DNA from: a virus
DNA: 42,702 nt
Strand: one strand, 5' to 3'
Virus record (IMG/VR): IMGVR_UViG_3300045988_133767
Span: 1 to 42,702 of that record
The position numbers and the translations under genes are program-made. Shown here piece by piece: positions 801-8,483 of the stretch (positions within the stretch are counted from its first letter, which is position 1; the number at the start of each line of letters is the position of its first letter). Below the pieces are notes generated by a model. That model saw only the letters and a list, made by a program, of their open reading frames with translations, ran no database searches and was not told the origin of the DNA.

Positions 801-1121
801 ATGGATTATAGAGATAGTGCAGTTATATATAAAAAAGAATTAATTGAAGATGGTTTAGGTGGCTATACTACAAAAGATGTAGGAATTAAAGAAATTAAAT
901 GCAAGGTAGCACCTTTTACTATTAGTGAAATTGATTCGGCTGGAAGGTTAGCGACTTATTCTAAAAATAAATTGTTTACACAAGAAAAGCTGGATAAATT
1001 ACTGGATCTTGATGAAGATTTTTATGTTTTATATGGAAATAAACATTATAAAAAAGAATCAGTTGCTGACTACAATAAATGCTACATGATTGTTATGGAG
1101 CGTGATGAAATTGGAAATTAA
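801..1121 (+). CDS. head closure / head-tail adaptor protein
   Basis: 106 aa. It is translationally coupled to the upstream gene (TAAATG). Its size and position fit the conserved head-tail joining module. Confidence 0.55.
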   Translation: MDYRDSAVIYKKELIEDGLGGYTTKDVGIKEIKCKVAPFTISEIDSAGRLATYSKNKLFTQEKLDKLLDLDEDFYVLYGNKHYKKESVADYNKCYMIVMERDEIGN

Positions 1122-1458
1122 AATAACCTCAGATGCTGAAAAAATACTAAAAAAATTCAATAACACTGCTACAGTTGAAAAAGATGTAAGCAAATTAGTA
1201 AAAGATACCTTGTATAATATCGAAAGAGATGCTAAAAAGAAATGCCCTGTTGATACTGGAAGGCTTAGAGGTTCTATAACTACTAATATAATTTCTACTT
1301 ATAGTGGTGAAGTAGGAACTAACGTTGAATATGCTGAGTATGTAGAATATGGTACTAGATATCAGTCAGCACAGCCTTATTTTGAGCCAGCAGTTGATGA
1401 AAATGAGGACAAATTTAATGATGCGCTTGATGAAATCATAGAAAGGTTATTAGAATAA
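1105..1458 (+). CDS. HK97 gp10-family tail/neck protein
   Basis: Contains the motif GRLRGSI...NVEYAEYVEYGT that is characteristic of the HK97 gp10 family. ATG 1105 is preceded by GGAG; the ORF track starts upstream at TTG 1090. Confidence 0.75.
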   Translation: MKLEIKITSDAEKILKKFNNTATVEKDVSKLVKDTLYNIERDAKKKCPVDTGRLRGSITTNIISTYSGEVGTNVEYAEYVEYGTRYQSAQPYFEPAVDENEDKFNDALDEIIERLLE

Positions 1459-1850
1459 TGATTTCTGTAGAGTTGCAAGAAAAGTTATATGCATTATTAA
1501 GTACATTGTCTTATCCTGTGCATGATGATGTACCTAAGAATGCTAAATGTCCTTATATTAAGCTTGGTACAAATAGAGGTAATGATAATTCTAACAAGAC
1601 TAATCGAGCTTACAAGGATTATCAATACATAGATGTTTTTTCAGAATACAGAGGCAAAAAAGAAGTAATGCAAATTATGAAACAAGTTAATGACTTGCTT
1701 CAAAACAAAACAATTACACTTGAAAATGAGCAAGCTTTCTTGTATTTAAATTCAAGTGAAATATTAGAGCAAAAAGATGCCGAGGGTAAATATTACCACG
1801 GCATTTTGATTTATAGAATAGAAACTCAAATGAAAGGAGTGATAGTATGA
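1458..1850 (+). CDS. tail completion / tail terminator-like protein
   Basis: 130 aa. Its start overlaps the upstream stop (TAATG). It sits between the gp10-like gene and the major tail gene. The call rests on synteny only. Confidence 0.5.
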   Translation: MISVELQEKLYALLSTLSYPVHDDVPKNAKCPYIKLGTNRGNDNSNKTNRAYKDYQYIDVFSEYRGKKEVMQIMKQVNDLLQNKTITLENEQAFLYLNSSEILEQKDAEGKYYHGILIYRIETQMKGVIV

Positions 1851-2287
1851 AACTAGACAACTTACAATTATTAGCTGTTGAAGGCGATACTGGAGAAGTT
1901 ATAAGAGGTTTAGATATAATTGTATCTGCTGGTGGTAAGGCTATAGGTGGCCAAAAGAACTGTAAAGTATCTATCAAAGCTGATTCCATAGATACATCTA
2001 CAAAAACATCAGGAGATTGGAAAAGAAAAATATCTGGAGCTAAAGAATGGTCAGCTGCTTGCGATGGATTTTATTATACTGGAGATGAAGGTTACGATGC
2101 TGCAGTTGATGCGGTATTAAGTTCTACTGCAGTTGATGTAGTGCTAGCTAATAAAACAAATACAGTAGGATTTAAGGGTAAAGCTTATATAGTAGGCTTG
2201 GATTTAGATGCACCTTATGATGATGCCCTTACATATGATTTAAGTTTCGATGGAAATGGCAAATTAGAAAAAGCTAGTGCTGTTTAG
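1847..2287 (+). CDS. major tail protein (TP901-1/phi13-like)
   Basis: 146 aa with the typical composition (TSTKTSGDWKRKISGAKEWSAACDG...SFDGNGKL). It lies immediately upstream of the chaperone pair and the tape measure gene. Confidence 0.75.
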   Translation: MKLDNLQLLAVEGDTGEVIRGLDIIVSAGGKAIGGQKNCKVSIKADSIDTSTKTSGDWKRKISGAKEWSAACDGFYYTGDEGYDAAVDAVLSSTAVDVVLANKTNTVGFKGKAYIVGLDLDAPYDDALTYDLSFDGNGKLEKASAV

Positions 2288-2296
2288 GAGGAATAC

Positions 2297-2632
2297 ATGG
2301 TACTAAATATAAACGATAAAGATTATGAATTAAAATATACAATAAATATACTTAGTAAAATGTCTGCTAATGGTTTAGATCCAATAAGAAATGCTGAGAA
2401 TGTTACAGGAACTATAGCTAATACAAGAAAAGCATTTTACTATGGATTAGTAGAAGAAAATAGCAAAATAACAGAGGTAACAGCTGGTAAATTAATGGAT
2501 GCTTATATAGCAGAAGGAAATGCAATATCAGATGTAATGAATATAATACAAGATGCTATATTTGAGTCACTGGGAATAGACACAAATGCTGAAACTGAAA
2601 ATAATACAGAAGAAAGTGAAGAGGGAAAGTAG
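2297..2632 (+). CDS. tail assembly chaperone (gpG-like)
   Basis: 111 aa with an acidic C-terminus. It lies between the major tail gene and the tape measure gene and ends 3 nt after a slippery heptamer. Confidence 0.8.
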   Translation: MVLNINDKDYELKYTINILSKMSANGLDPIRNAENVTGTIANTRKAFYYGLVEENSKITEVTAGKLMDAYIAEGNAISDVMNIIQDAIFESLGIDTNAETENNTEESEEGK

Positions 2633-2967
2633 AACTCAAAGAGCTAATTGAGAATCTATATAAAAAGTTAGTGGGTGGTATGAAAATGCCACCTTCTTCT
2701 TTTTGGCATCTAACTATACATGAAGCTAATTTAGCACTAGAAGGGCATAAAAAAGAACAACAAGAGCAATATAACTTAAGTCTATGTTGCTTACAAAATG
2801 CTTTAGGAATGGCATTTGGAGGGGATAAATTCAAGCCTATCAATCCTTTTGAGAGCGCTAAGAGTAAAAAAGAAGCTCATAAAGTAAGCAAGAAACAAAG
2901 AGAAGAAAACTTGACATATATAAATAATTTATTTGAAAAATTTGGAGGTGGTGAAAATAGCAACTAA
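2297..2967 (+). CDS. tail assembly chaperone frameshift fusion (gpGT-like; -1 shift at 2623-2629)
   Basis: The downstream ORF (track 2671..2967) is in the -1 frame and is open back to 2620, with no independent RBS or ATG near 2620. This is the canonical G/GT arrangement upstream of a tape measure gene. Confidence 0.7.
2623..2629 (+). promoter_or_regulatory. -1 programmed ribosomal frameshift slippery heptamer G_GGA_AAG
   Basis: The zero-frame codons are GAG GGA AAG TAG. The -1 frame is open from 2620 to 2967. The X_XXY_YYZ pattern is satisfied, and the heptamer is the same as the lambda G/GT site. Confidence 0.8.
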
Positions 2968-3655
2968 AGTTTTAAATGTAAAGATCAATGCTGATATAGC
3001 TTCCTTCAAAACAAAAATGCAAGATGCTAGAAAATCAATCCAGGATATGTCAGAAAGCATTAAAAAGGCGACTGGCAATAGTAAATTAAGTGATGCATTA
3101 GGAGCTTCTGACTTTGGCAAAAAGCTAGAAGAAGTTAAAACTAAAGCATCTAATTTAGGACAAGTATTTAAAGCATTACCTGGACCAGCAAAAGCACTTG
3201 TTGTTGTAACTGCAGTATTAACAGTTACTAAAAAGTTATATGATGCTGGAAAACAGAGGTTTTTTGATGGACTGAATAACATAAAAGATACAGTCTCCCC
3301 TGTGTTTCAAGGTATGCTCACCTCAATAAATGCAGTTAAAGATGCTTTTAGTGAGTTAACAGGATTTGATTTTAATCTTTCAAGTCTTATAACAACTGGA
3401 GCAAACTTTGAATCACAAATGAAAACAGTTGCTACAATAGCTGGAAGTGTAGGAACTGAATTTGACCAGTTAGTTGCAAAAGCTAGAGAATTAGGAGCTG
3501 CAACTACATTTAGCGCTAGTCAAGTGGGCCAAGCAATGCAATATATGGCCATGGCTGGTTGGTCAACTCAAGAAATGCTTGACGGAGTACAATCAACATT
3601 AAATTTAGCAAAAATAGGGGCTACAGATTTAGGAACAGCAAGTGACATTTTGACT
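2933..3655 (+). CDS. tail tape measure protein, exon 1
   Basis: The coiled-coil N-terminus is followed by the TMP core motif ...ATTFSASQVGQAMQYMAMAGWSTQEMLDGVQSTLNLAKIGATDLGTASDILT. Coding-like sequence stops at ACT 3653-3655. The exact start is uncertain (TTG 2933, or GTG 2948/2951 next to GGAGG 2944-2948). Confidence 0.8.
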
Positions 3656-3943
3656 AAAATATTGGTCGGTTTAGTAGAAATACTATTCAAAAAATATTCG
3701 GTGAATTGCTGGAAGGCTAAGTTAATATTTGTAATTTATGGTATTAATATGCTAATCAGCAACCAAGCCATGGAAAGCCGTAAAAGTACATGGAAGGTTC
3801 AGAGACTAGGAGAATGAATAGGCAAATAATAATTTCTCCCACGAGCGCCGAACACCTTACTATTAAGTTAAAGGTGATGATATAGTCCCATCCTCTTATG
3901 AAAGTAAGAGTTCTAGGATAAAGAGCCTAGATATAAGATAATG
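3656..3943 (+). mobile_element. group I intron 1 in the tape measure gene (ORF-less, 288 nt)
   Basis: The 5' exon ends in U. Exon TTGACT (3650-3655) can pair with GGTCGG (3664-3669) to form P1 with a U.G pair at the splice site. There is a GAAA-tetraloop hairpin TAGTA-GAAA-TACTA. The P7 candidate is GACTA (3804-3808) with TAGTC (3883-3887), set in a GATATAGTCC context. The intron ends in G at 3943, and exon 2 resumes in frame. Confidence 0.8.
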
Positions 3944-4141
3944 GATGATTTAACTGCACTTGGCATGCAAGCAAATCAAGCTGGCGACTTTGCAGATAAA
4001 TTAGCTGCAACTATTACTAGAAGTAATACCGATGTTGTTTTATTCGGTGAATCTATGAAACAAACAGGCGCTATCGCTGGAGCATTAGGTGCTTCTATGA
4101 CAGATTTATCAACTAGTATCGGTCTAATGGCAAATGCGGGT
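3944..4141 (+). CDS. tail tape measure protein, exon 2
   Basis: Encodes DDLTALGMQANQAGDFADKLAATITRSNTDVVLFGESMKQTGAIAGALGASMTDLSTSIGLMANAG, which continues the TMP core motif exactly. There is no RBS before the apparent ATG at 3941. Confidence 0.8.
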
Positions 4142-4402
4142 AGACATACATGCTCGGTTACTAAGAAATTAGTAGCATAAAATACAGGGTTAAAATTGGA
4201 AAGCTAAGTCGAAAGATATGCTAATCAATTACCACTTCTATTAGGGATAATAGAAAGGTTTAGAGACTAGATAAAGTAAACTAGAACAGTTGAAATATCC
4301 ACGAAATCCTGCACCTAAGTTTAGAAAATATGGTGAAGAGATAGTCCGATACTCTTAGGAAACTAGGAGAGATAAGGATAAAGAGCCTTATTGTAACAAT
4401 TG
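4142..4402 (+). mobile_element. group I intron 2 in the tape measure gene (ORF-less, 261 nt)
   Basis: The 5' exon ends in U (GGT). Exon CGGGT (4137-4141) pairs with GCTCG (4152-4156), giving a U.G at the splice site. The P7 candidate is GACTA (4265-4269) with TAGTC (4342-4346). There is a GAAA-loop hairpin CTCTTAG-GAAA-CTAGGAG. The shared 3' block GGATAAAGAGCCT is present, and the intron ends in G at 4402. Confidence 0.75.
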
Positions 4403-4447
4403 ATTAAAGGTTCAAAGGCAGGTATGTCTTTGAAGAATATGTTGGCT
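4403..4447 (+). CDS. tail tape measure protein, exon 3 (45-nt micro-exon)
   Basis: Encodes IKGSKAGMSLKNMLA. This is the conserved G-IKGS-AG-LK motif of TP901-type tape measure proteins, in frame with both flanking exons. Confidence 0.75.
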
Positions 4448-5828
4448 AGAATATTGGTCGGTTTAGTAGAAATACTATTCAAAAAAGATTCGGCAATATC
4501 GGTGAAGGCTAAGTTTATTAATAATTGTAAATATGTTATAATATTTTTAGGGATAGTTAAGGAAGTCGCGAGCCTTAATGACAAGAAAGTTATCCGAGCT
4601 TTCTTCCCTTGTTAAATAAATCGGAAAATAAAAATACTGTCGGAGGTGTTTTTTATTATGAAAAAAATATGTATTTGTTGTGGTTTAGAAAAGGATATAA
4701 CAGAATTTTCTTTTAGAAAAGATACTAATAAGTATAGAAATCAATGTAAAGATTGCAGAAAGCAACAGAAAGCTAAATACGATAAAGAATATAATACCAA
4801 AAACAAAGAACGTAGAAAACAATATAGAAAAGAAAATGAAGCTAAAATAAAAGAACATAATAAACAATATTATGAAAAACATAAAGAAGTTTTAAAGAAA
4901 AATACTTCTGAATATTACCACAACAACAAAGCAAAAGTTTTAGAAAAATGCAAAGAATATAGAGAAAATAATAAAGAAAAAATAAAAATATCACAAAAGA
5001 AATATCGTGAAAGCAATAAAGTGTATTTAAATGAAAAGAGTAAACAGTATTACGAAGAACATAAAGAAGTTTTAAATGAAAGAAGAAAAAATTATCGTAT
5101 AGAAAATAATTTAGAAGTACGTAAATTAGATTACGAATATAGATTAAAAAATAAACACAGATATAAATACACTTGTAAGAATTGTGGCAAAAGCTTCACG
5201 GATTTTAAATTAGGAAGAAAGTTTTGCTCAACTGAATGTTTTAACGAGTATAATCAAGGCAGTAATAATCCTAATTACAATGTGAATTTAACAGATGAAG
5301 AAAGAGCTGAAAATAGAGATACAAAAGAATATAAAGTATGGAGAAAAAAGATTTTTGAAAAATATAATTATACTTGCCAATGTTGTGGGCAACAAGGCGG
5401 AGATATAGTTGCTCATCATTTAGATTCTTTTGATAAGAACAAAGAAAGTAGGCTTGACATAGAAAACGGAATAGTTCTTTGCAAGAAACATCATAAAGAA
5501 TTTCATCATATCTACGGATATGGTAACAATACAAAAGAACAATATGAACAATTTATAAATGATAAGGTATCTAAATAAGATGCCTTTTTATTTTGCAATT
5601 ATTAATAGATACGTTAATACCGAGATAACTTTATAGATTACGAAAGGCTATAAAGTATCGTAGAGCGTAGAGGGTGAATAAATATAATCCCTCCAAGAGT
5701 GTCGAACATCTTAACAAGTAAAGTTGAAGATGAAAATGTACGCCAAACTGAGTTGGAATTGACCAACTGATGAAAATGAAGGAAACTTCCAGAGGTGAAG
5801 ATAAAAAGCTTCACGATAATAACTATTG
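4448..5828 (+). mobile_element. group I intron 3 in the tape measure gene, carrying an HNH homing endonuclease ORF (1381 nt)
   Basis: The 5' exon ends in U (GCT). Exon TTGGCT (4442-4447) pairs with GGTCGG (4456-4461). The first 39 nt of the intron are near-identical to the start of intron 1. The P7 candidate is GCGTA (5665-5669) with TACGC (5739-5743). The intron ends in G at 5828. An ORF with its own RBS occupies 4658-5578. Confidence 0.8.
4658..5578 (+). CDS. intron-encoded HNH homing endonuclease
   Basis: RBS GGAGGTG is followed 9 nt later by ATG 4658. The N-terminus is Cys-containing, followed by Lys-rich repeats (KxYYExHKEVL). There is a zinc-ribbon motif CKNCGK...FCSTEC. The C-terminal HNH motif is CQCCG...VAHHLDSF...NGIVLCKKHHKEFHH. 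Confidence 0.85.
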   Translation: MKKICICCGLEKDITEFSFRKDTNKYRNQCKDCRKQQKAKYDKEYNTKNKERRKQYRKENEAKIKEHNKQYYEKHKEVLKKNTSEYYHNNKAKVLEKCKEYRENNKEKIKISQKKYRESNKVYLNEKSKQYYEEHKEVLNERRKNYRIENNLEVRKLDYEYRLKNKHRYKYTCKNCGKSFTDFKLGRKFCSTECFNEYNQGSNNPNYNVNLTDEERAENRDTKEYKVWRKKIFEKYNYTCQCCGQQGGDIVAHHLDSFDKNKESRLDIENGIVLCKKHHKEFHHIYGYGNNTKEQYEQFINDKVSK

Positions 5829-8483
5829 AATATGGCAAATCCAACAGACCAACAAGACAGAGCTTTACAAGAATTAGGAATGACTGCTGACAAAACAGGA
5901 AGTTATCTAAAAACAACAGCTGACGGATGTACAGATTTAGAAGCTACAGTAAAAGCATTAAGAGAAGGCACAGAAAATATGACAAGAAGTCAAAAAGCAG
6001 CTTTGATAGCTACTGTTGCTGGTAAAAATGCTTTACCAGGAGTTATGTCACTTGTTAATGCATCAGCAGAAGAATACAACAAGCTATCAGAAGCGATAGA
6101 CAATTCAACTTCTACAGTATCAATGTTTAATGAAAATATGAACATCTTAGGTTTAAAAGGCGAAGATGCTACAAAGAGAATAGAAGTCATGAAAGATGTA
6201 TTTTCTAATACTGAAACATCAGCAACAGCATTAGGATTGTCTAGTAAAGACTTAGGATATGCAATATCTTTACTTGGTGATGATTGTAAAGTTAGTTCTC
6301 AATCTGTAGAAGATTTACTCGATGTAGTAGAATCTATGGATAATGCTAGTGGTAAAGTTGATAAATTTTGGAGAAGTGTAGGAAATGCTAAAAACATAGA
6401 AATAGACGGAAAAGCAATAAATCAACTTATAGATTATAACGGAACTTTAAGTACTATAGATAATTCTATAGTTGGACTTAGTGATCATACAGTAGAATAT
6501 GCTAAAGCTCATAATGAAAACTATAAAAACACAAAAGAATATGTTAAATCACTTGTAAAAGAAGGAATGACAATAGACGATGCTAACAGTAAGCTTTCTA
6601 AATATGGAATAGAAGCTGAAAAAATATCATTATCTACATTATCAATGTCTCAAAAGACAGATTACCTAAGACAAGCATTTAAGGGCATGTCAGACGAACA
6701 AATAAAAGCTAAATTGCAAACTATAGGACTTGGAGATAGCTTTGATGAAGTTAACGAAATAGTTGATATGTCAGATGAAAAATATGCAACTTACAAGAAG
6801 AATCTTAAAGAAATTGAAGGATTATCAACTAGATTAGCTGACAGCATTGATGAAACAACAAAATCAACATTTTTAGCATTATCAAGTGCGATAGAAGATA
6901 GTTTAATAGGTGCATTTGAAAAAATGAAACCAGCGCTTATAAACGGCTCTCAAGCACTTACAGACTTTTTCTCAACTTGGAGAAACGGGGATAAAAACAC
7001 TTATACTTTTGATGGATTTGAAAAGGGATTAGCTGACTTAGAAACAAAAGTATCTAATGCAGCTAAAAATATACCTAATTTAATATCAAATGCAATAAGT
7101 GGTGCTAATAGATTTATAAGTGGTGGTTCTTTAGACAGTTTATTAAGCATGGGTAGTAGTATAGTTAAAAACATAGCTCAAGGCATAATAAACAACAAAG
7201 AAGGTTTATCAGCTGCAATAAGTAGTTTGATATCAAAAGTTTGTAGCTGGATTCAAGAAAATGGTCCTATGATCCAAGAAGCTGGCAAAGTTATCTTAGA
7301 AGCTATAGGAAACGGAATAAGAAATAATAGAGATCAAATAAATTCAGCATGCGGTATTATCTATGATGCAATGAACGATTGGTCGGCTGCAAATGCAGAA
7401 AATATGGGTATGCTTGGTGGTTCAGTAGCAGATAAATTTATATGGGGATTCTTAAAAGGCTTTACAATGGATAAATTTGCTGGTATAAAAGGATTTTTTG
7501 CTGGATTATTTAACAGCGACGGACAAGATGCTTATCAACAATGGGGTATTTCTAGTGGGCAAAATTACACCAATGGTATAAACTCAGGACTTGAACAAAG
7601 TAAATCTACAACAAATGCTACTGCAACAGAAATAGGCGATGGCATTTCCCAAAATATAATGAATAAGCTAGAAACTATGAATGCAAGTCAACTAAAAGAG
7701 TTAGAAAAAGAATTAAAATCCTTACAAACAACAACTCAAAATGTAGCTAATGGTATAGGTTCAAGCTTTGGAAAAATTAGAAATACAGTTAGAGAGAATT
7801 TAGTGGGTAGTGTTAACATAGGTAGAAATCAATTTGTCAACCTAGCTAATATTATAAGAAATCAATCTCAAAATGCTAGAAATAGCGCAACAAGAAGCTT
7901 TATATCACTTAGAAAAGTTATAAATACACAAATAACACAAGCTAGAACTGCTGTAACAAGTAAGATGATATCTATTGCTAATGTTGTAAGAACACAGTCA
8001 CAAAATGCACGTAACAATGCTACAAGAAGCTTTATATCACTTAGAAAAGTTATACAAACTCAAATGTCACAAGCTTATAGTTCTGTAAATAGTTATATGT
8101 CTAAAATAGCATCTGCTACAAATAGAACACTTAACACTAAAGTTAATGTTACTAGAACTGTTAATACTGTAAATCAGAGTGCTAGAACAGCTAATTTAAA
8201 AGCTGTAAACACAATGGCATATTCAAACTTAGCATATAGTGCTATAAGAGCTACAAATAATGCTGCTACTGCTAGTTTAGCTAGTACATCAACTTCAAGC
8301 TTTTCTAGTTCAACAGGTGTATCTAGTTCTTCTAATAGCACAGCAAAAGCTACTACAAGAGATATGAGGATAGTAATGCCAGTATATCTTGATAGCAAGG
8401 TCATAGGTGAATCTACTGCAGATATAGTAGATGATAAAATAAAAGTAAAAGCAAGAAGAGAAAACAGGAAGAGAGGTAGATAA
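5829..8483 (+). CDS. tail tape measure protein, exon 4
   Basis: Starts NMANPTDQQDRALQELGM, which completes the ...KNMLA|NMANPT motif. It then runs as a long helical protein with C-terminal tandem repeats. The apparent start at TTG 5826 has no RBS. Confidence 0.85.
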   Translation, partial: NMANPTDQQDRALQELGMTADKTGSYLKTTADGCTDLEATVKALREGTENMTRSQKAALIATVAGKNALPGVMSLVNASAEEYNKLSEAIDNSTSTVSMFNENMNILGLKGEDATKRIEVMKDVFSNTETSATALGLSSKDLGYAISLLGDDCKVSSQSVEDLLDVVESMDNASGKVDKFWRSVGNAKNIEIDGKAINQLIDYNGTLSTIDNSIVGLSDHTVEYAKAHNENYKNTKEYVKSLVKEGMTIDDANSKLSKYGIEAEKISLSTLSMSQKTDYLRQAFKGMSDEQIKAKLQTIGLGDSFDEVNEIVDMSDEKYATYKKNLKEIEGLSTRLADSIDETTKSTFLALSSAIEDSLIGAFEKMKPALINGSQALTDFFSTWRNGDKNTYTFDGFEKGLADLETKVSNAAKNIPNLISNAISGANRFISGGSLDSLLSMGSSIVKNIAQGIINNKEGLSAAISSLISKVCSWIQENGPMIQEAGKVILEAIGNGIRNNRDQINSACGIIYDAMNDWSAANAENMGMLGGSVADKFIWGFLKGFTMDKFAGIKGFFAGLFNSDGQDAYQQWGISSGQNYTNGINSGLEQSKSTTNATATEIGDGISQNIMNKLETMNASQLKELEKELKSLQTTTQNVANGIGSSFGKIRNTVRENLVGSVNIGRNQFVNLANIIRNQSQNARNSATRSFISLRKVINTQITQARTAVTSKMISIANVVRTQSQNARNNATRSFISLRKVIQTQMSQAYSSVNSYMSKIASATNRTLNTKVNVTRTVNTVNQSARTANLKAVNTMAYSNLAYSAIRATNNAATASLASTSTSSFSSSTGVSSSSNSTAKATTRDMRIVMPVYLDSKVIGESTADIVDDKIKVKARRENRKRGR

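What the first reader, a model, noticed from the sequence alone, without database searches (positions are those of the whole stretch)
4448..5828. Intron 3 carries an HNH homing endonuclease in a peripheral loop
This 1381-nt intron has ribozyme halves at 4448 to about 4640 and at about 5580 to 5828. They flank an ORF with its own RBS (4658-5578) that encodes an HNH enzyme. The enzyme has a zinc-ribbon motif and a Lys-rich repeat region (KxYYExHKEVL).

HNH enzymes within phage group I introns, such as I-HmuI and I-TwoI, are nicking homing endonucleases. The likely target here is the intron-less tape measure allele of related phages, which would give marker exclusion in mixed infections.
Basis: partly seen in the sequence, partly recalled or inferred. 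Interest (0 to 1): 0.75.

Follow-up and report, generated by a model that had tools for sequence, protein, structure and literature searches.

The report
Mobile intron with HNH nuclease gene
A phage tail-length (tape measure) gene is interrupted by a self-splicing group I intron that carries its own DNA-cutting enzyme gene. Related phages show the intron has recently moved between genomes, but this kind of selfish element is already well known.

Summary
Confirmed. Window 4448-5828 is a 1381-nt group I intron, the third of three in a TP901-type tape measure gene. Its borders are fixed by P1 (U·G), the terminal G, and 11 related phage contigs whose gene is continuous at exactly this point. Covariation across six phage introns supports P3-P9.2 across the ORF (93% paired, 34/60 compensatory pairs).

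The 306-aa ORF (4658-5578) lies in the distal P5 loop, closed by an 18-bp helix. It has a Cys4 zinc ribbon, nine 15-aa basic repeats, a second zinc ribbon with a NUMOD3-like motif, and a C-terminal HNH domain with intact catalytic residues (pN/pS 0.14).

Mobility is supported by intron-plus/minus and ORF-plus/minus alleles, by a ribozyme 98-100% identical in phages whose exons are 73-78% identical, and by two independent ORF deletions.

The enzyme is not an I-HmuI relative, so "nicking" rests on analogy only. Cleavage and splicing are untested. Multi-intron tape measure genes are already described, so this is a new member of a known kind.

Extra observation: the ORF looks like a self-contained cassette (TGnTATAAT, conserved structured leader, SD, terminator-like hairpin). 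Its head also precedes GIY-YIG and other nuclease-like ORFs in other phages.

The parts
4403..4447 (+). Exon 3 of the tape measure gene, a 45-nt micro-exon between introns 2 and 3. Its last 6 nt (4442-4447, UUGGCU) form the exon strand of P1.
   Evidence: In-frame splice model. A 45-nt equivalent is present in the intron-less alleles L022 and L023. P1 pairing is 6/6.
4448..5828 (+). Group I intron 3 (1381 nt), from the first base after U4447 to the terminal G5828.
   Evidence: The natural ORF-less allele (L003, 303 nt) gives a full-length RF00028 alignment at 20.2 bits, E=0.013.
4451..4461 (+). Internal guide sequence. 4456-4461 (GGUCGG) pairs with the 5' exon (P1). 4451-4455 (AUAUU) pairs with the 3' exon 5829-5833 (P10).
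   Evidence: 6/6 and 5/5 pairs.
4464..4477 (+). P2 hairpin UAGUA-GAAA-UACUA.
4489..4509 (+). 5' strands of P3 (4489-4495), P4 (4499-4504) and P5 (4507-4509). Their partners lie beyond the ORF at 5700-5706, 5618-5623 and 5613-5615.
   Evidence: Covariation in P3 and P4: 100% of cells paired, with 4/7 and 3/6 pairs showing compensatory change.
4514..4531 (+). 5' strand of an 18-bp extension of P5. It pairs with 5592-5609 and closes the loop that holds the ORF cassette.
   Evidence: 18/18 pairs. Recovered in the MFE fold of a mini-construct. Analogous closing helices with different sequences are visible by inspection in L001, L057 and L115.
4534..4542 (+). TGTTATAAT, an extended -10 promoter-like motif at the head of the ORF cassette. 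The promoter role is inferred.
   Evidence: Conserved as TRTGNTATAAT about 7 nt upstream of the leader in all 12 cassette heads extracted here, in different introns and one apparently free-standing copy. One head (L119) lacks the TG and one (L001) reads TATTAT. It is the only such site in the window. The simple -35/-10 scan did not call it.
4549..4609 (+). Conserved structured leader, a three-way junction. Stem A is 4549-4552/4606-4609, stem B 4557-4562/4573-4578, and stem C 4583-4589/4599-4605, with invariant loops AAGUCGCGAG and (U)AUCCGAG.
   Evidence: 98.8% of cells paired, 5/17 pairs compensatory; slid controls 37-72%. No Rfam match.
4642..4646 (+). Shine-Dalgarno GGAGG, 11 nt upstream of the ATG.
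   Evidence: CGGAGGT is invariant across the cassettes.
4658..5578 (+). 306-aa ORF. Domain order: Cys4 zinc ribbon (aa 5-33), nine 15-aa basic repeats (43-170), second zinc ribbon with FCSxEC motif (173-194), NUMOD3-like GSNNPNYN (201-208), and a C-terminal HNH domain (about 220-306: C240, C243, H253, H254, N270, C275, H278, H279, H283).
   Evidence: pN/pS against the L007 allele is 0.14.
5564..5595 (+). Intrinsic-terminator-like hairpin (9-bp stem 5564-5572/5578-5586) overlapping the stop codon, followed by a T-run.
   Evidence: (2 found against 0.7 expected). Every other complete cassette inspected also ends in a hairpin plus T-run. It is retained in the ORF-deleted allele L011.
5592..5623 (+). 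3' strands of the P5 extension (5592-5609), P5 (5613-5615) and P4 (5618-5623).
5624..5743 (+). Catalytic core 3' half. P6 is 5624-5659, P7 5' strand 5665-5669, P7.1 5670-5693, P3 3' strand 5700-5706, P8 5707-5732, J8/7 5733-5738, and P7 3' strand 5739-5743.
   Evidence: a G-C to A-U compensatory change in P7; 8/12 compensatory pairs in P6, 4/5 in P7.1. Region 5616-5828 is 82% identical to the Clostridium phage vB_CpeS-1181 TerL intron.
5751..5828 (+). Peripheral 3' domain: P9 (5751-5768), P9.1 with a GAAA loop (5778-5789), P9.2 (5795-5814), a conserved GAUAAYAA tail, and the terminal G5828.

Best explanation
Window 4448-5828 is a self-splicing group I intron of subgroup IA type, with a P7.1 hairpin between P7 and P3'. 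It interrupts the conserved PhageMin_Tail domain of a siphovirus tape measure gene between codons 322 (Ala) and 323 (Asn).

The ribozyme is split by a 1.08-kb gene cassette lodged in the distal P5 loop. An 18-bp helix brings the two halves together. The cassette reads like an independent expression unit: a TGnTATAAT box, a structured leader, a strong SD, a 306-aa ORF and a terminator-like hairpin.

The protein is a modular site-specific HNH nuclease. Zinc ribbons, basic 15-aa repeats and a NUMOD3-like motif would bind a long DNA target. The single C-terminal zinc-HNH active site would cut it.

In a cell co-infected with a related phage whose tape measure gene lacks the intron, the enzyme would cut near the empty site. 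A monomeric HNH most likely nicks one strand, but this is not shown. Recombinational repair from the intron-bearing genome would then copy the intron plus a short tract of flanking exon into the recipient.

Splicing restores the tape measure mRNA, so the element costs the phage little. After fixation the ORF decays by deletion while the ribozyme persists.

Shown here: the intron anatomy, borders and covariation; intact catalytic residues and purifying selection; presence/absence polymorphism; lateral spread; and ORF-deletion derivatives. Inferred: self-splicing, cleavage activity, target site, nick versus double-strand break, and promoter and terminator function.
For: Borders and splicing frame.

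Ribozyme.
- The natural ORF-less allele gives a full-length RF00028 alignment.
- Covariation over six phage introns gives 93.1% paired cells against 32-42% in slid controls. 34/60 pairs have compensatory changes and 0/500 shuffles reach the observed value. This includes P3 and P4, which join the two halves across the ORF.
- Both halves are 81-82% identical (blastn; megablast and database hits 82-84%) to the TerL intron of Clostridium phage vB_CpeS-1181, which carries an unrelated ORF at the same spot.

Enzyme.
- HNH residues are invariant.
- HNH families are hit.
- The AF2 model has an HNH domain at pLDDT>90, and Foldseek top hits are zinc-HNH nucleases with probabilities about 0.9-1.0. These include the nicking enzymes GVE2 HNHE, Gme HNH and T5 SciA.
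- pN/pS is 0.14 over 35 synonymous and 25 non-synonymous differences.

Mobility.
- Alleles exist with and without intron 3 in phages 90-99% identical in the adjacent exon.
- The intron 3 ribozyme is 98-100% identical in L011/L012 and 97% in L007, while the first 500 nt of exon 4 are only 71-78% identical.
- In L011, identity extends only 24 nt upstream and 17 nt downstream of the site.
- All intron-3-plus alleles examined on the 5' side (window, L003, L011) share the 5' exon end GTTGGCT, and none of the 11 intron-3-less alleles has it.

ORF decay.
- L003 lacks 4539-5616, a span bounded by the direct repeat ATATGTTA/ATACGTTA.
- L011/L012 lack about 4525-5553 but keep the last four codons, the stop and the hairpin of this ORF.

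Dispensability. L003 (a locus on a 41-kb phage contig carrying portal-to-tail genes) and L011/L012 carry the ORF-less intron. Many relatives carry no intron 3 at all.
Against: - No experiment supports splicing or cleavage.
- Rfam does not detect the intron in the window, and the ORF-less allele scores 20.2 bits, below the 50-bit gathering score.
- The Pfam HNH match is marginal: 21.1 against a cut-off of 21 for HNH_2, and 14.6 against 21.4 for HNH.
- Foldseek E-values are only about 1e-2, because the query was the whole multi-domain model.
- The enzyme has no detectable relationship to the characterised nicking intron HNH enzymes.
- The intron-less alleles found differ from the intron-plus exon context at several bases next to the site. 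It is not known whether any of them is a cleavable target.
- A terminator-like hairpin inside an intron of an essential late gene is awkward for read-through of the tape measure mRNA.
Confidence: 0.8

Rival explanations
1. The HNH cassette is an independent selfish gene that merely lodges in the intron. Its cleavage target would be something other than the empty intron-3 exon junction. Candidates are the ORF-less version of the intron (the P5 loop DNA) or a nearby exon site such as the intron-2 site 45 nt away. In that case it would spread itself into resident introns, or mobilise introns 2 and 3 together (collaborative homing).
For: - The same cassette head (TGnTATAAT, leader, SD) precedes unrelated nuclease ORFs in different introns, and in one apparently intergenic location (L068).
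- The same ribozyme in vB_CpeS-1181 carries a different ORF at the same spot.
- ORF-less intron 3 alleles exist that could serve as targets.
- Introns 2 and 3 co-occur or are co-absent in most alleles.
- A closely related HNH domain (45% identity) sits in intron 1 of L016/L018/L123.
Against: - Both ORF-less alleles look like deletions rather than empty sites. L011 keeps the ORF's last codons, and the L003 junction lies in an 8-bp direct repeat.
- L007 has intron 3 plus the ORF without intron 2 at its site, so the two introns are separable.
- The N-terminal DNA-binding part differs between the intron-1 and intron-3 enzymes, as expected if each is tuned to its own exon site.
Confidence: 0.12
2. 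The ORF is a decaying or inactive relic. The intron would now be inherited only vertically, or through ordinary recombination between phages.
For: - ORF loss has happened at least twice.
- One zinc ligand is substituted, H278 where most homologues have Cys.
- The Pfam score is marginal.
Against: - The full-length ORF is conserved in at least five contigs, with pN/pS 0.10-0.14 and no change in catalytic residues.
- The intron is 98-100% identical in a 73-78% identical exon background, which implies recent transfer.
Confidence: 0.06
3. The HNH protein serves the phage or the intron rather than itself. It might be a terminase-associated HNH needed for DNA packaging (HK97 gp74 or GVE2 type), or a maturase that helps the intron fold.
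For: The closest structural neighbours include the packaging-associated GVE2 HNH endonuclease. Free-standing homologues sit next to structural genes in other phages, for example just upstream of the tape measure gene in Bacillus phage Staley.
Against: Close relatives with otherwise collinear structural modules lack the ORF altogether (L003, L013, L015-L023) or have deleted it (L011/L012). It is therefore dispensable for both packaging and splicing.
Confidence: 0.02

Closest known systems
Group I introns in the tape measure gene of Bacillus cereus-group prophages (TMP-IVS1, IVS2, IVS3; Tourasse & Kolsto 2008, PMC2504315)
   Same: Several subgroup IA introns lie at up to three sites in one tape measure gene. 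Related introns sit at different sites with adapted P1, different introns sit at the same site, and distribution among related phages is patchy. All of this is seen here.
   Different: The host group differs (an uncultivated low-GC phage; nearest isolates are Terrisporobacter and Clostridium phages). Here there are four sites in the phage group. At least five different nuclease ORFs occur across the alleles. Homology with the Bacillus introns was not tested.
I-HmuI / I-HmuII / I-BasI / I-TwoI / I-PfoP3I: nicking HNH homing endonucleases in phage group I introns (PMC3428280; PMC2988022)
   Same: An HNH nuclease encoded inside a phage group I intron in an essential gene, with a modular 'beads on a string' build that includes a NUMOD-type motif. 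The expected role in homing and marker exclusion is the same.
   Different: In that group the HNH domain is near the N-terminus; here it is C-terminal and of the zinc-bound PF01844/PF13391 type. No sequence match to I-HmuI was found in the PDB at E<=1, and it is not among the Foldseek top 50. Nicking is not shown.
TerL group I intron of Clostridium phage vB_CpeS-1181 (MW478292, about 1538-2707; annotated only as split terminase CDSs plus a hypothetical protein)
   Same: It has the same ribozyme scaffold (81-82% identity by blastn in both the leader and the 3' half). It also has the same leader and SD directly upstream of the ORF, and the ORF is in the same P5 loop.
   Different: It lies in a different host gene, so P1 differs. 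It carries an unrelated 259-aa ORF that matches PHROG homing-endonuclease families but no Pfam family.
T4 td, nrdD and nrdB intron endonuclease genes (I-TevI, I-TevII, I-TevIII)
   Same: The intron ORF sits in a peripheral loop with its own promoter inside the intron and an RNA structure around the RBS. I-TevIII is an HNH enzyme, and in T4 itself it is inactivated by a large deletion.
   Different: In T4 the promoters and RBS hairpins were mapped experimentally; here they are inferred from conservation. The T4 enzymes are GIY-YIG, or a dimeric HNH that makes a double-strand break. The leader sequence here is unrelated and is shared across nuclease families.
Phage Twort orf142, one gene with three group I introns (Landthaler & Shub 1999; recalled from memory, not read here)
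   Same: A single phage gene split by three self-splicing introns.
   Different: The gene and host differ. No comparison was made here.

Membership tests
Group I intron | The 5' splice site follows a U that forms a U·G pair with the internal guide sequence in P1, and the intron ends in G. | tested here: met
   U4447·G4456 lies within a 6-bp P1. G5828 is the last base, and P10 is 5/5.
Group I intron | Conserved core helices P3-P8, including the P3/P7 pseudoknot, supported by covariation. | tested here: met
   On alignment A2 of six phage introns, 93.1% of cells are paired against 32-42% when slid. 34/60 pairs show compensatory change. P3, P4, P7 and P7.1 are 100% paired.
Group I intron | Match to the Rfam RF00028 covariance model at its gathering score (50 bits). 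| tested here: not met
   There is no hit in the window, because the ORF splits the model. The natural ORF-less allele gives a full-length alignment but only 20.2 bits, E=0.013. Introns 1 and 2 of the same gene score 105.9 and 53.9 bits. This is a detection threshold, not a structural criterion.
Group I intron | Precise removal restores an intact host gene, and intron-less alleles exist. | tested here: met
   The spliced ORF is in frame, with one continuous PF10145 match at E=1.7e-40. Eleven contigs are continuous at the site.
Group I intron | Guanosine-dependent self-splicing. | not testable with these tools
   This needs in vitro transcription with GTP, or RT-PCR of infected cells.
HNH (beta-beta-alpha-metal) nuclease superfamily | The His...Asn...His catalytic motif on a beta-beta-alpha fold, here with a zinc site. 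| tested here: met
   H253, H254, N270 and H279 are invariant in 26 homologues. C240, C243, C275 and H278 are the zinc ligands. The AF2 model has beta strands 250-254 and 271-275 followed by helix 276-286 at pLDDT>90. Foldseek top hits are all HNH domains with probability about 0.9-1.0. PHROG HNH families hit at E~1e-12.
HNH (beta-beta-alpha-metal) nuclease superfamily | Pfam gathering score for an HNH model. | tested here: inconclusive
   HNH_2 scores 21.1 bits against a cut-off of 21.0. HNH (PF01844) scores 14.6 against 21.4. The homologue in L016 scores 29.6 for PF01844.
I-HmuI-type nicking intron HNH endonucleases | Sequence or structural relatedness to I-HmuI, with an N-terminal HNH domain ('subset 2'). 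| tested here: not met
   A PDB sequence search at E<=1 does not find I-HmuI. It is not in the Foldseek top 50. The HNH domain is at the C-terminus. The subset definition comes from PMC3428280.
I-HmuI-type nicking intron HNH endonucleases | Cuts one strand only, near the intron insertion site. | not testable with these tools
   This needs purified protein and strand-specific mapping.
Homing endonuclease gene (functional class) | Encoded within the mobile element, with cognate empty sites in related genomes. | tested here: met
Homing endonuclease gene (functional class) | Evidence of lateral spread of the element with short co-converted flanks. | tested here: met
   The intron is 98-100% identical against 73-78% for the first 500 nt of exon 4 in L011/L012. 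Identity extends 24 nt upstream and 17 nt downstream of the site.
Homing endonuclease gene (functional class) | Site-specific cleavage of the intron-less allele. | not testable with these tools

The most novel reading that the evidence does not exclude
The head of the ORF cassette (TGnTATAAT, about 7 nt, a three-way-junction leader with invariant loops AAGUCGCGAG and AUCCGAG, then CGGAGGUG) may be a portable expression and regulatory module. It is not in Rfam.

Unrelated homing nucleases share it: this HNH family, a GIY-YIG enzyme, and ORFs that match PHROG homing-endonuclease families. It occurs in different group I introns and in at least one apparently free-standing gene of low-GC phages.

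The loop of stem C is complementary both to a spacer segment (UCGGAUAA) and to the SD (UCGGAGG). This suggests a switch that sets when the nuclease is translated relative to splicing, or a 5' stabiliser for a transcript started inside the intron.

If so, nuclease ORFs are being swapped behind a conserved riboregulator, and the unit of mobility is the cassette rather than the intron.
Probability: 0.3. Interest if true: 0.6.

Novelty: new member of a known kind. Interest (0 to 1): 0.4.

Why it matters
This adds a well-documented case, not a new principle. Group I introns with homing endonuclease genes in phage structural genes are established, and several introns in one tape measure gene have been described before.

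The value lies in the natural series of alleles found around it:
- four insertion sites within about 0.6 kb of coding sequence;
- intron-plus and intron-minus alleles;
- ORF-plus and ORF-deleted alleles;
- the same ribozyme carrying different nuclease genes;
- the same nuclease domain attached to different DNA-binding parts.

Together these show every stage of the invasion, fixation, ORF-decay and loss cycle in one phage group. They also give ready-made substrates for testing target recognition by a C-terminal zinc-HNH enzyme with basic repeats.

Practically, annotation pipelines split this tape measure gene into several ORFs plus a 'hypothetical protein', so recognising the introns repairs the gene model.

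Tried and rejected
- Rfam on the window (gathering threshold) and on 4380-5900 (E-value mode) finds no group I hit for intron 3. Only four chance-level hits (E 2-7) to small unrelated RNA families were returned. Detection needed the natural ORF-less allele.
- The PDB sequence search found no nuclease relative.
- The scan of 185,579 reference genomes for the tape measure protein found no relative, so no host could be assigned.
- I tested whether the sequence over the -10 box (AAATATGTTAT) mimics the intron-less homing site, as the I-TevI operator does. The 11-mer with one mismatch or fewer occurs 7 times in the window against 6.4 expected, so this is not beyond chance.
- My first 3' border for intron 1 (3937) was wrong. 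Intron-1-less alleles place it at 3943|3944.
- My first estimate of the segment missing in L003 (4539-5605) was an artefact of overlapping BLAST hits. The correct span is 4539-5616.
- The exact 14-mer search for the leader in IMG/VR returned mostly chance hits. A 16-mer plus a downstream CCGAG filter was needed.
- The maturase and packaging-HNH readings were rejected because close relatives lack the ORF.
Full report
**1. What is at 4448-5828**

The window encodes a tail module. Its tape measure gene (TTG 2933 to stop 8483) is broken into four pieces.

- Rfam finds group I introns at 3646-3910 (105.9 bits) and 4116-4369 (53.9 bits), but nothing in 4448-5828.
- Reading the sequence and checking by coordinates gives, for the third interruption:
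  - a 6-bp P1 between exon bases 4442-4447 (UUGGCU) and 4456-4461 (GGUCGG), with the splice-site U4447 opposite G4456;
  - a GAAA-capped P2;
  - a terminal G at 5828;
  - a 5-bp P10.
- Joining 2933-3655, 3938-4141 (my first model of exon 2, corrected to 3944-4141 in section 5), 4403-4447 and 5829-8483 gives one open frame.
- The N-terminal part of that frame matches PF10145 (PhageMin_Tail) as a single stretch, profile positions 3-201 of 201, E=1.7e-40. Intron-less homologues at about 44% identity cover the whole junction region.
- Corrected to 3944-4141 for exon 2, the spliced protein is 1206 aa.

**2. Natural alleles fix the borders**

Protein and DNA look-ups recovered 21 related loci. I mapped them with blastn and by extracting the junction.

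| Configuration | Loci |
|---|---|
| Continuous at the intron 3 site | L002, L013, L015-L023 |
| No intron at all (exon 3 equivalent exactly 45 nt) | L022, L023 |
| Intron 3 with the ORF | L004, L007, L008, L014 |
| Intron 3 without the ORF | L003, L011/L012 |

- The three intron-3-plus alleles whose 5' exon I inspected (window, L003, L011) end in GTTGGCT, the sequence P1 needs. None of the 11 intron-3-less alleles does. They end in TTATCG, TTGTCA, TTGTCG or TTTACT.

**3. The two halves form one ribozyme**

- *ORF-less allele.* In L003 the intron is 303 nt. It equals window 4448-4538 plus 5617-5828 and is 100% identical over both parts.
- *Rfam on that allele.* In E-value mode Rfam aligns it end to end with RF00028. 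The score is only 20.2 bits (E=0.013), but the alignment recovers P1, P2, P3, P4, P5, P6, P3' and P8, with a P7.1 insertion.
- *Relatives in isolate genomes.* The 3' half has many relatives inside split genes:
  - TerL of Clostridium phage vB_CpeS-1181 (82%);
  - a tail gene of Clostridioides phage phiCDKH02;
  - the tape measure gene of Caldibacillus phage CBP1;
  - a helicase gene of crAss-like phage cr6_1;
  - the DNA polymerase gene of Leptolyngbya phage Lbo-JY46.
- *Covariation.* I cut out the ORFs, aligned six introns from P3 to the 3' end (A2) and counted a hand-drawn structure:
  - 93.1% of 334 cells form standard pairs, against 32-42% when partners are slid by 1-3 columns;
  - 34 of 60 pairs show changes on both sides;
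  - 0 of 500 shuffles reach the observed values.
- *Helices spanning the ORF.* P3 (4489-4495/5700-5706) and P4 (4499-4504/5618-5623) pair across the ORF. Both are 100% paired, with 4/7 and 3/6 compensatory pairs. P7 shows a G-C to A-U switch.
- *Caveat.* The structure was drawn from the window sequence, which favours it in the slid control. The number of compensatory pairs does not depend on that.

**4. Where the ORF sits**

- The segment missing from L003 is 4539-5616. It lies between the 5' and 3' strands of P5.
- In the window an 18/18-bp helix (4514-4531 with 5592-5609) extends P5 and closes the insert.
- Helices of different sequence do the same job in L001, L057 and L115.
- 'Peripheral loop' is therefore right: the ORF is in the distal P5 loop.
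- In cr6_1 and Lbo-JY46 the ORF lies upstream of P3 instead.

**5. The protein**

*Domain order.*

| Residues | Feature |
|---|---|
| 5-33 | Cys4 zinc ribbon |
| 43-170 | Nine tandem 15-aa repeats, K-x-Y-[YR]-x-x-N-K-E-x-[ILV]; residues 31-165 are 32% K+R |
| 173-194 | Second zinc ribbon, CxxCGK...FCSxEC |
| 201-208 | NUMOD3-like GSNNPNYN, then LTDEER |
| about 220-306 | HNH domain, ending in YGYGNNTKEQYEQF |

*Catalytic residues.* In a 26-member alignment, C240, H253, H254, N270, G271, H279, F282 and H283 are invariant. The window protein has H278 where most homologues have Cys.

*Domain support.* Pfam support is marginal, but PHROG HNH families hit at 1e-12. An AlphaFold model (mean pLDDT 76.5) has confident zinc ribbons and HNH domain, with low-confidence helices through the repeats.

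*Structural neighbours.* Foldseek against the PDB returns only HNH domains at the top: GeoCas9 HNH, phage GVE2 HNHE, Cas5-HNH, Cap5, T5 SciA, EcoKMcrA and Gme HNH. E-values are about 1e-2 and probabilities about 0.9-1.0.

*Relation to I-HmuI.* I-HmuI does not appear there, nor in a PDB sequence search at E<=1. The enzyme belongs to the HNH superfamily but not to the I-HmuI group, whose HNH domain is N-terminal.

*Selection.* The window and L007 alleles differ by 35 synonymous and 25 non-synonymous changes (pN/pS 0.14), none at catalytic positions.

*Modularity.* The C-terminal 157 aa are 45% identical (E=6e-36) to the ORF carried by intron 1 in L016/L018/L123, whose N-terminal part is different. 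The N-terminal zinc ribbon is about 40% identical to that of a PF01844/HNH_5 ORF carried by a fourth intron in L013. Some homologues in isolate phages are free-standing genes.

**6. Evidence for homing and for the ORF life cycle**

- In L011/L012 exon identity to the window is 76% (exon 1), 83% (exon 2) and 73-78% (first 500 nt of exon 4). The intron 3 ribozyme parts are nevertheless 98-100% identical.
- In those loci, identity runs only 24 nt upstream and 17 nt downstream of the insertion site before dropping.
- L007 shows the same pattern: ribozyme 97%, exon 4 71-78%.
- L011/L012 have lost the ORF but keep AAGGTATCTAAATAA, which is its last four codons and stop, plus the hairpin that follows.
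- L003 has lost 4539-5616 between the direct repeats ATATGTTA (4531-4538) and ATACGTTA (5609-5616). These are two independent deletions.
- Relatives without the ORF or without the intron rule out an essential role in packaging or splicing.

**7. The ORF is a cassette**

- *Shared head.* The 110 nt upstream of the ATG are shared with the vB_CpeS-1181 intron, although its ORF is unrelated.
- *Other copies.* Pattern searches of IMG/VR found the same head in other contigs. Their ORFs are:
  - this HNH family (L119, L123/L060, L057, L149);
  - a GIY-YIG enzyme (L115; Pfam E=2e-11);
  - zinc-ribbon-rich ORFs like that of vB_CpeS-1181 (L068, L097; PHROG 'homing endonuclease' for L001, no Pfam hit).
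- *Conserved order.* TRTGNTATAAT, about 7 nt, a three-way junction, an A-rich spacer, CGGAGGUG, ATG. Every complete copy ends in a hairpin followed by a T-run.
- *Leader structure.* The three leader stems are 98.8% paired, with 5/17 compensatory pairs.
- *Loop complementarity.* The loop of stem C is complementary to a spacer segment over 6-9 bp in 7 of 10 sequences (P<=0.03 against shuffled spacers). In the window it is only 5 bp. It can also pair with the SD, over 5 bp in most copies and 8 bp in L119 and L097.
- *Precedent.* A promoter inside the intron and RNA structure around the RBS are the known arrangement for the T4 intron endonucleases. The promoter, terminator and switch roles here are inferences.
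- *Open problem.* How tape measure transcripts read through a terminator-like hairpin is unexplained.

**8. Context and novelty**

- No close isolate exists for the window phage. The best hits for its Dit protein are Terrisporobacter phages at 34% identity, and no reference genome carries the tape measure gene.
- Tape measure genes with group I introns at three sites have been described in B. cereus-group prophages. That work also reported related introns at different sites and patchy distribution.
- Intron-encoded HNH enzymes that nick are well characterised.
- The finding is therefore real and well supported, and it is a new member of a known kind.
- What is less ordinary is the density of variation in this phage group, and the shared cassette head.

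Noticed in passing
window 3656-3943 and 4142-4402: Two more group I introns lie in the same gene (Rfam 105.9 and 53.9 bits), leaving a 45-nt exon (4403-4447) between introns 2 and 3. The 3' border of intron 1 is 3943|3944, not the in-frame G at 3937. Intron-1-less alleles read ...GATATTTTRACN|GATGATTTAACT.
   Followed up: yes
window 3647-3734 versus 4439-4538: Introns 1 and 3 share about 84% identity over their first 90 nt, including an identical guide sequence (UUGGUCGG) and P2. Their 3' parts belong to different ribozyme types. Intron 3 looks like a chimera, or the two introns have exchanged 5' ends. Both 5' exons end in TTGRCT.
   Followed up: partly
relatives L007, L013, L015-L020, at the position equivalent to window about 3549/3550: A fourth insertion site exists in the same tape measure gene. 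It is occupied by an intron about 82% identical to the window's intron 2. In L013 and L015 that intron carries a 245-248-aa HNH_5 ORF, and in L015 also a 253-aa ORF with LAGLIDADG-like motifs (seen by eye, not scanned). L020 has an insertion of similar size whose ORFs were not examined.
   Followed up: partly
L011/L012 about 4947-6220; L016/L018/L123: The nuclease gene moves between introns of this gene. In L011/L012 intron 2 carries a 341-aa ORF (DUF723/CapR/DUF2726 hits) while intron 3 is ORF-less. In L016/L018/L123 intron 1 carries a 321-aa HNH ORF with the same cassette head as intron 3.
   Followed up: partly
window 4534-4657 and 5564-5595; L001, L057, L060, L068, L097, L115, L119, L123, L149: A conserved cassette head (TGnTATAAT, three-way-junction leader, CGGAGGUG) and a terminator-like tail frame unrelated nuclease ORFs in several phages. 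The leader is not in Rfam. The loop of its third stem is complementary to a spacer segment and to the SD.
   Followed up: partly
window 5564-5595: A 9-bp hairpin plus T-run sits inside an intron of an essential late gene. How transcription of the tape measure gene passes it is unexplained.
   Followed up: no
window 4334-4371: The 3' end of intron 2 matches 38 nt of Pseudoalteromonas phage pYD6-A at 97% in an unannotated stretch. This may be a related intron in a distant host group.
   Followed up: no
protein P0122 (214 aa, 773-nt ENA contig): A protein 97% identical to about a third of this HNH ORF carries a precomputed GAPDH C-terminal domain hit (PF02800). It may be a chimeric contig or a fusion at a contig end.
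   Followed up: no
window 7845-7967 and 7977-8099; 5028-5081 and about 4850-4900: Two internal direct repeats were seen. One is a repeat of about 123 nt in the C-terminal part of the tape measure gene (73-79% identical between copies across loci). The other is a repeat of about 54 nt inside the HNH ORF that encodes the two KQYYExHKEVL copies.
   Followed up: no
L001 (MW478292) 839-3793: The public annotation of Clostridium phage vB_CpeS-1181 lists two 'terminase large subunit' CDSs and a hypothetical protein. They are one TerL gene split by a group I intron carrying a putative endonuclease ORF.
   Followed up: partly
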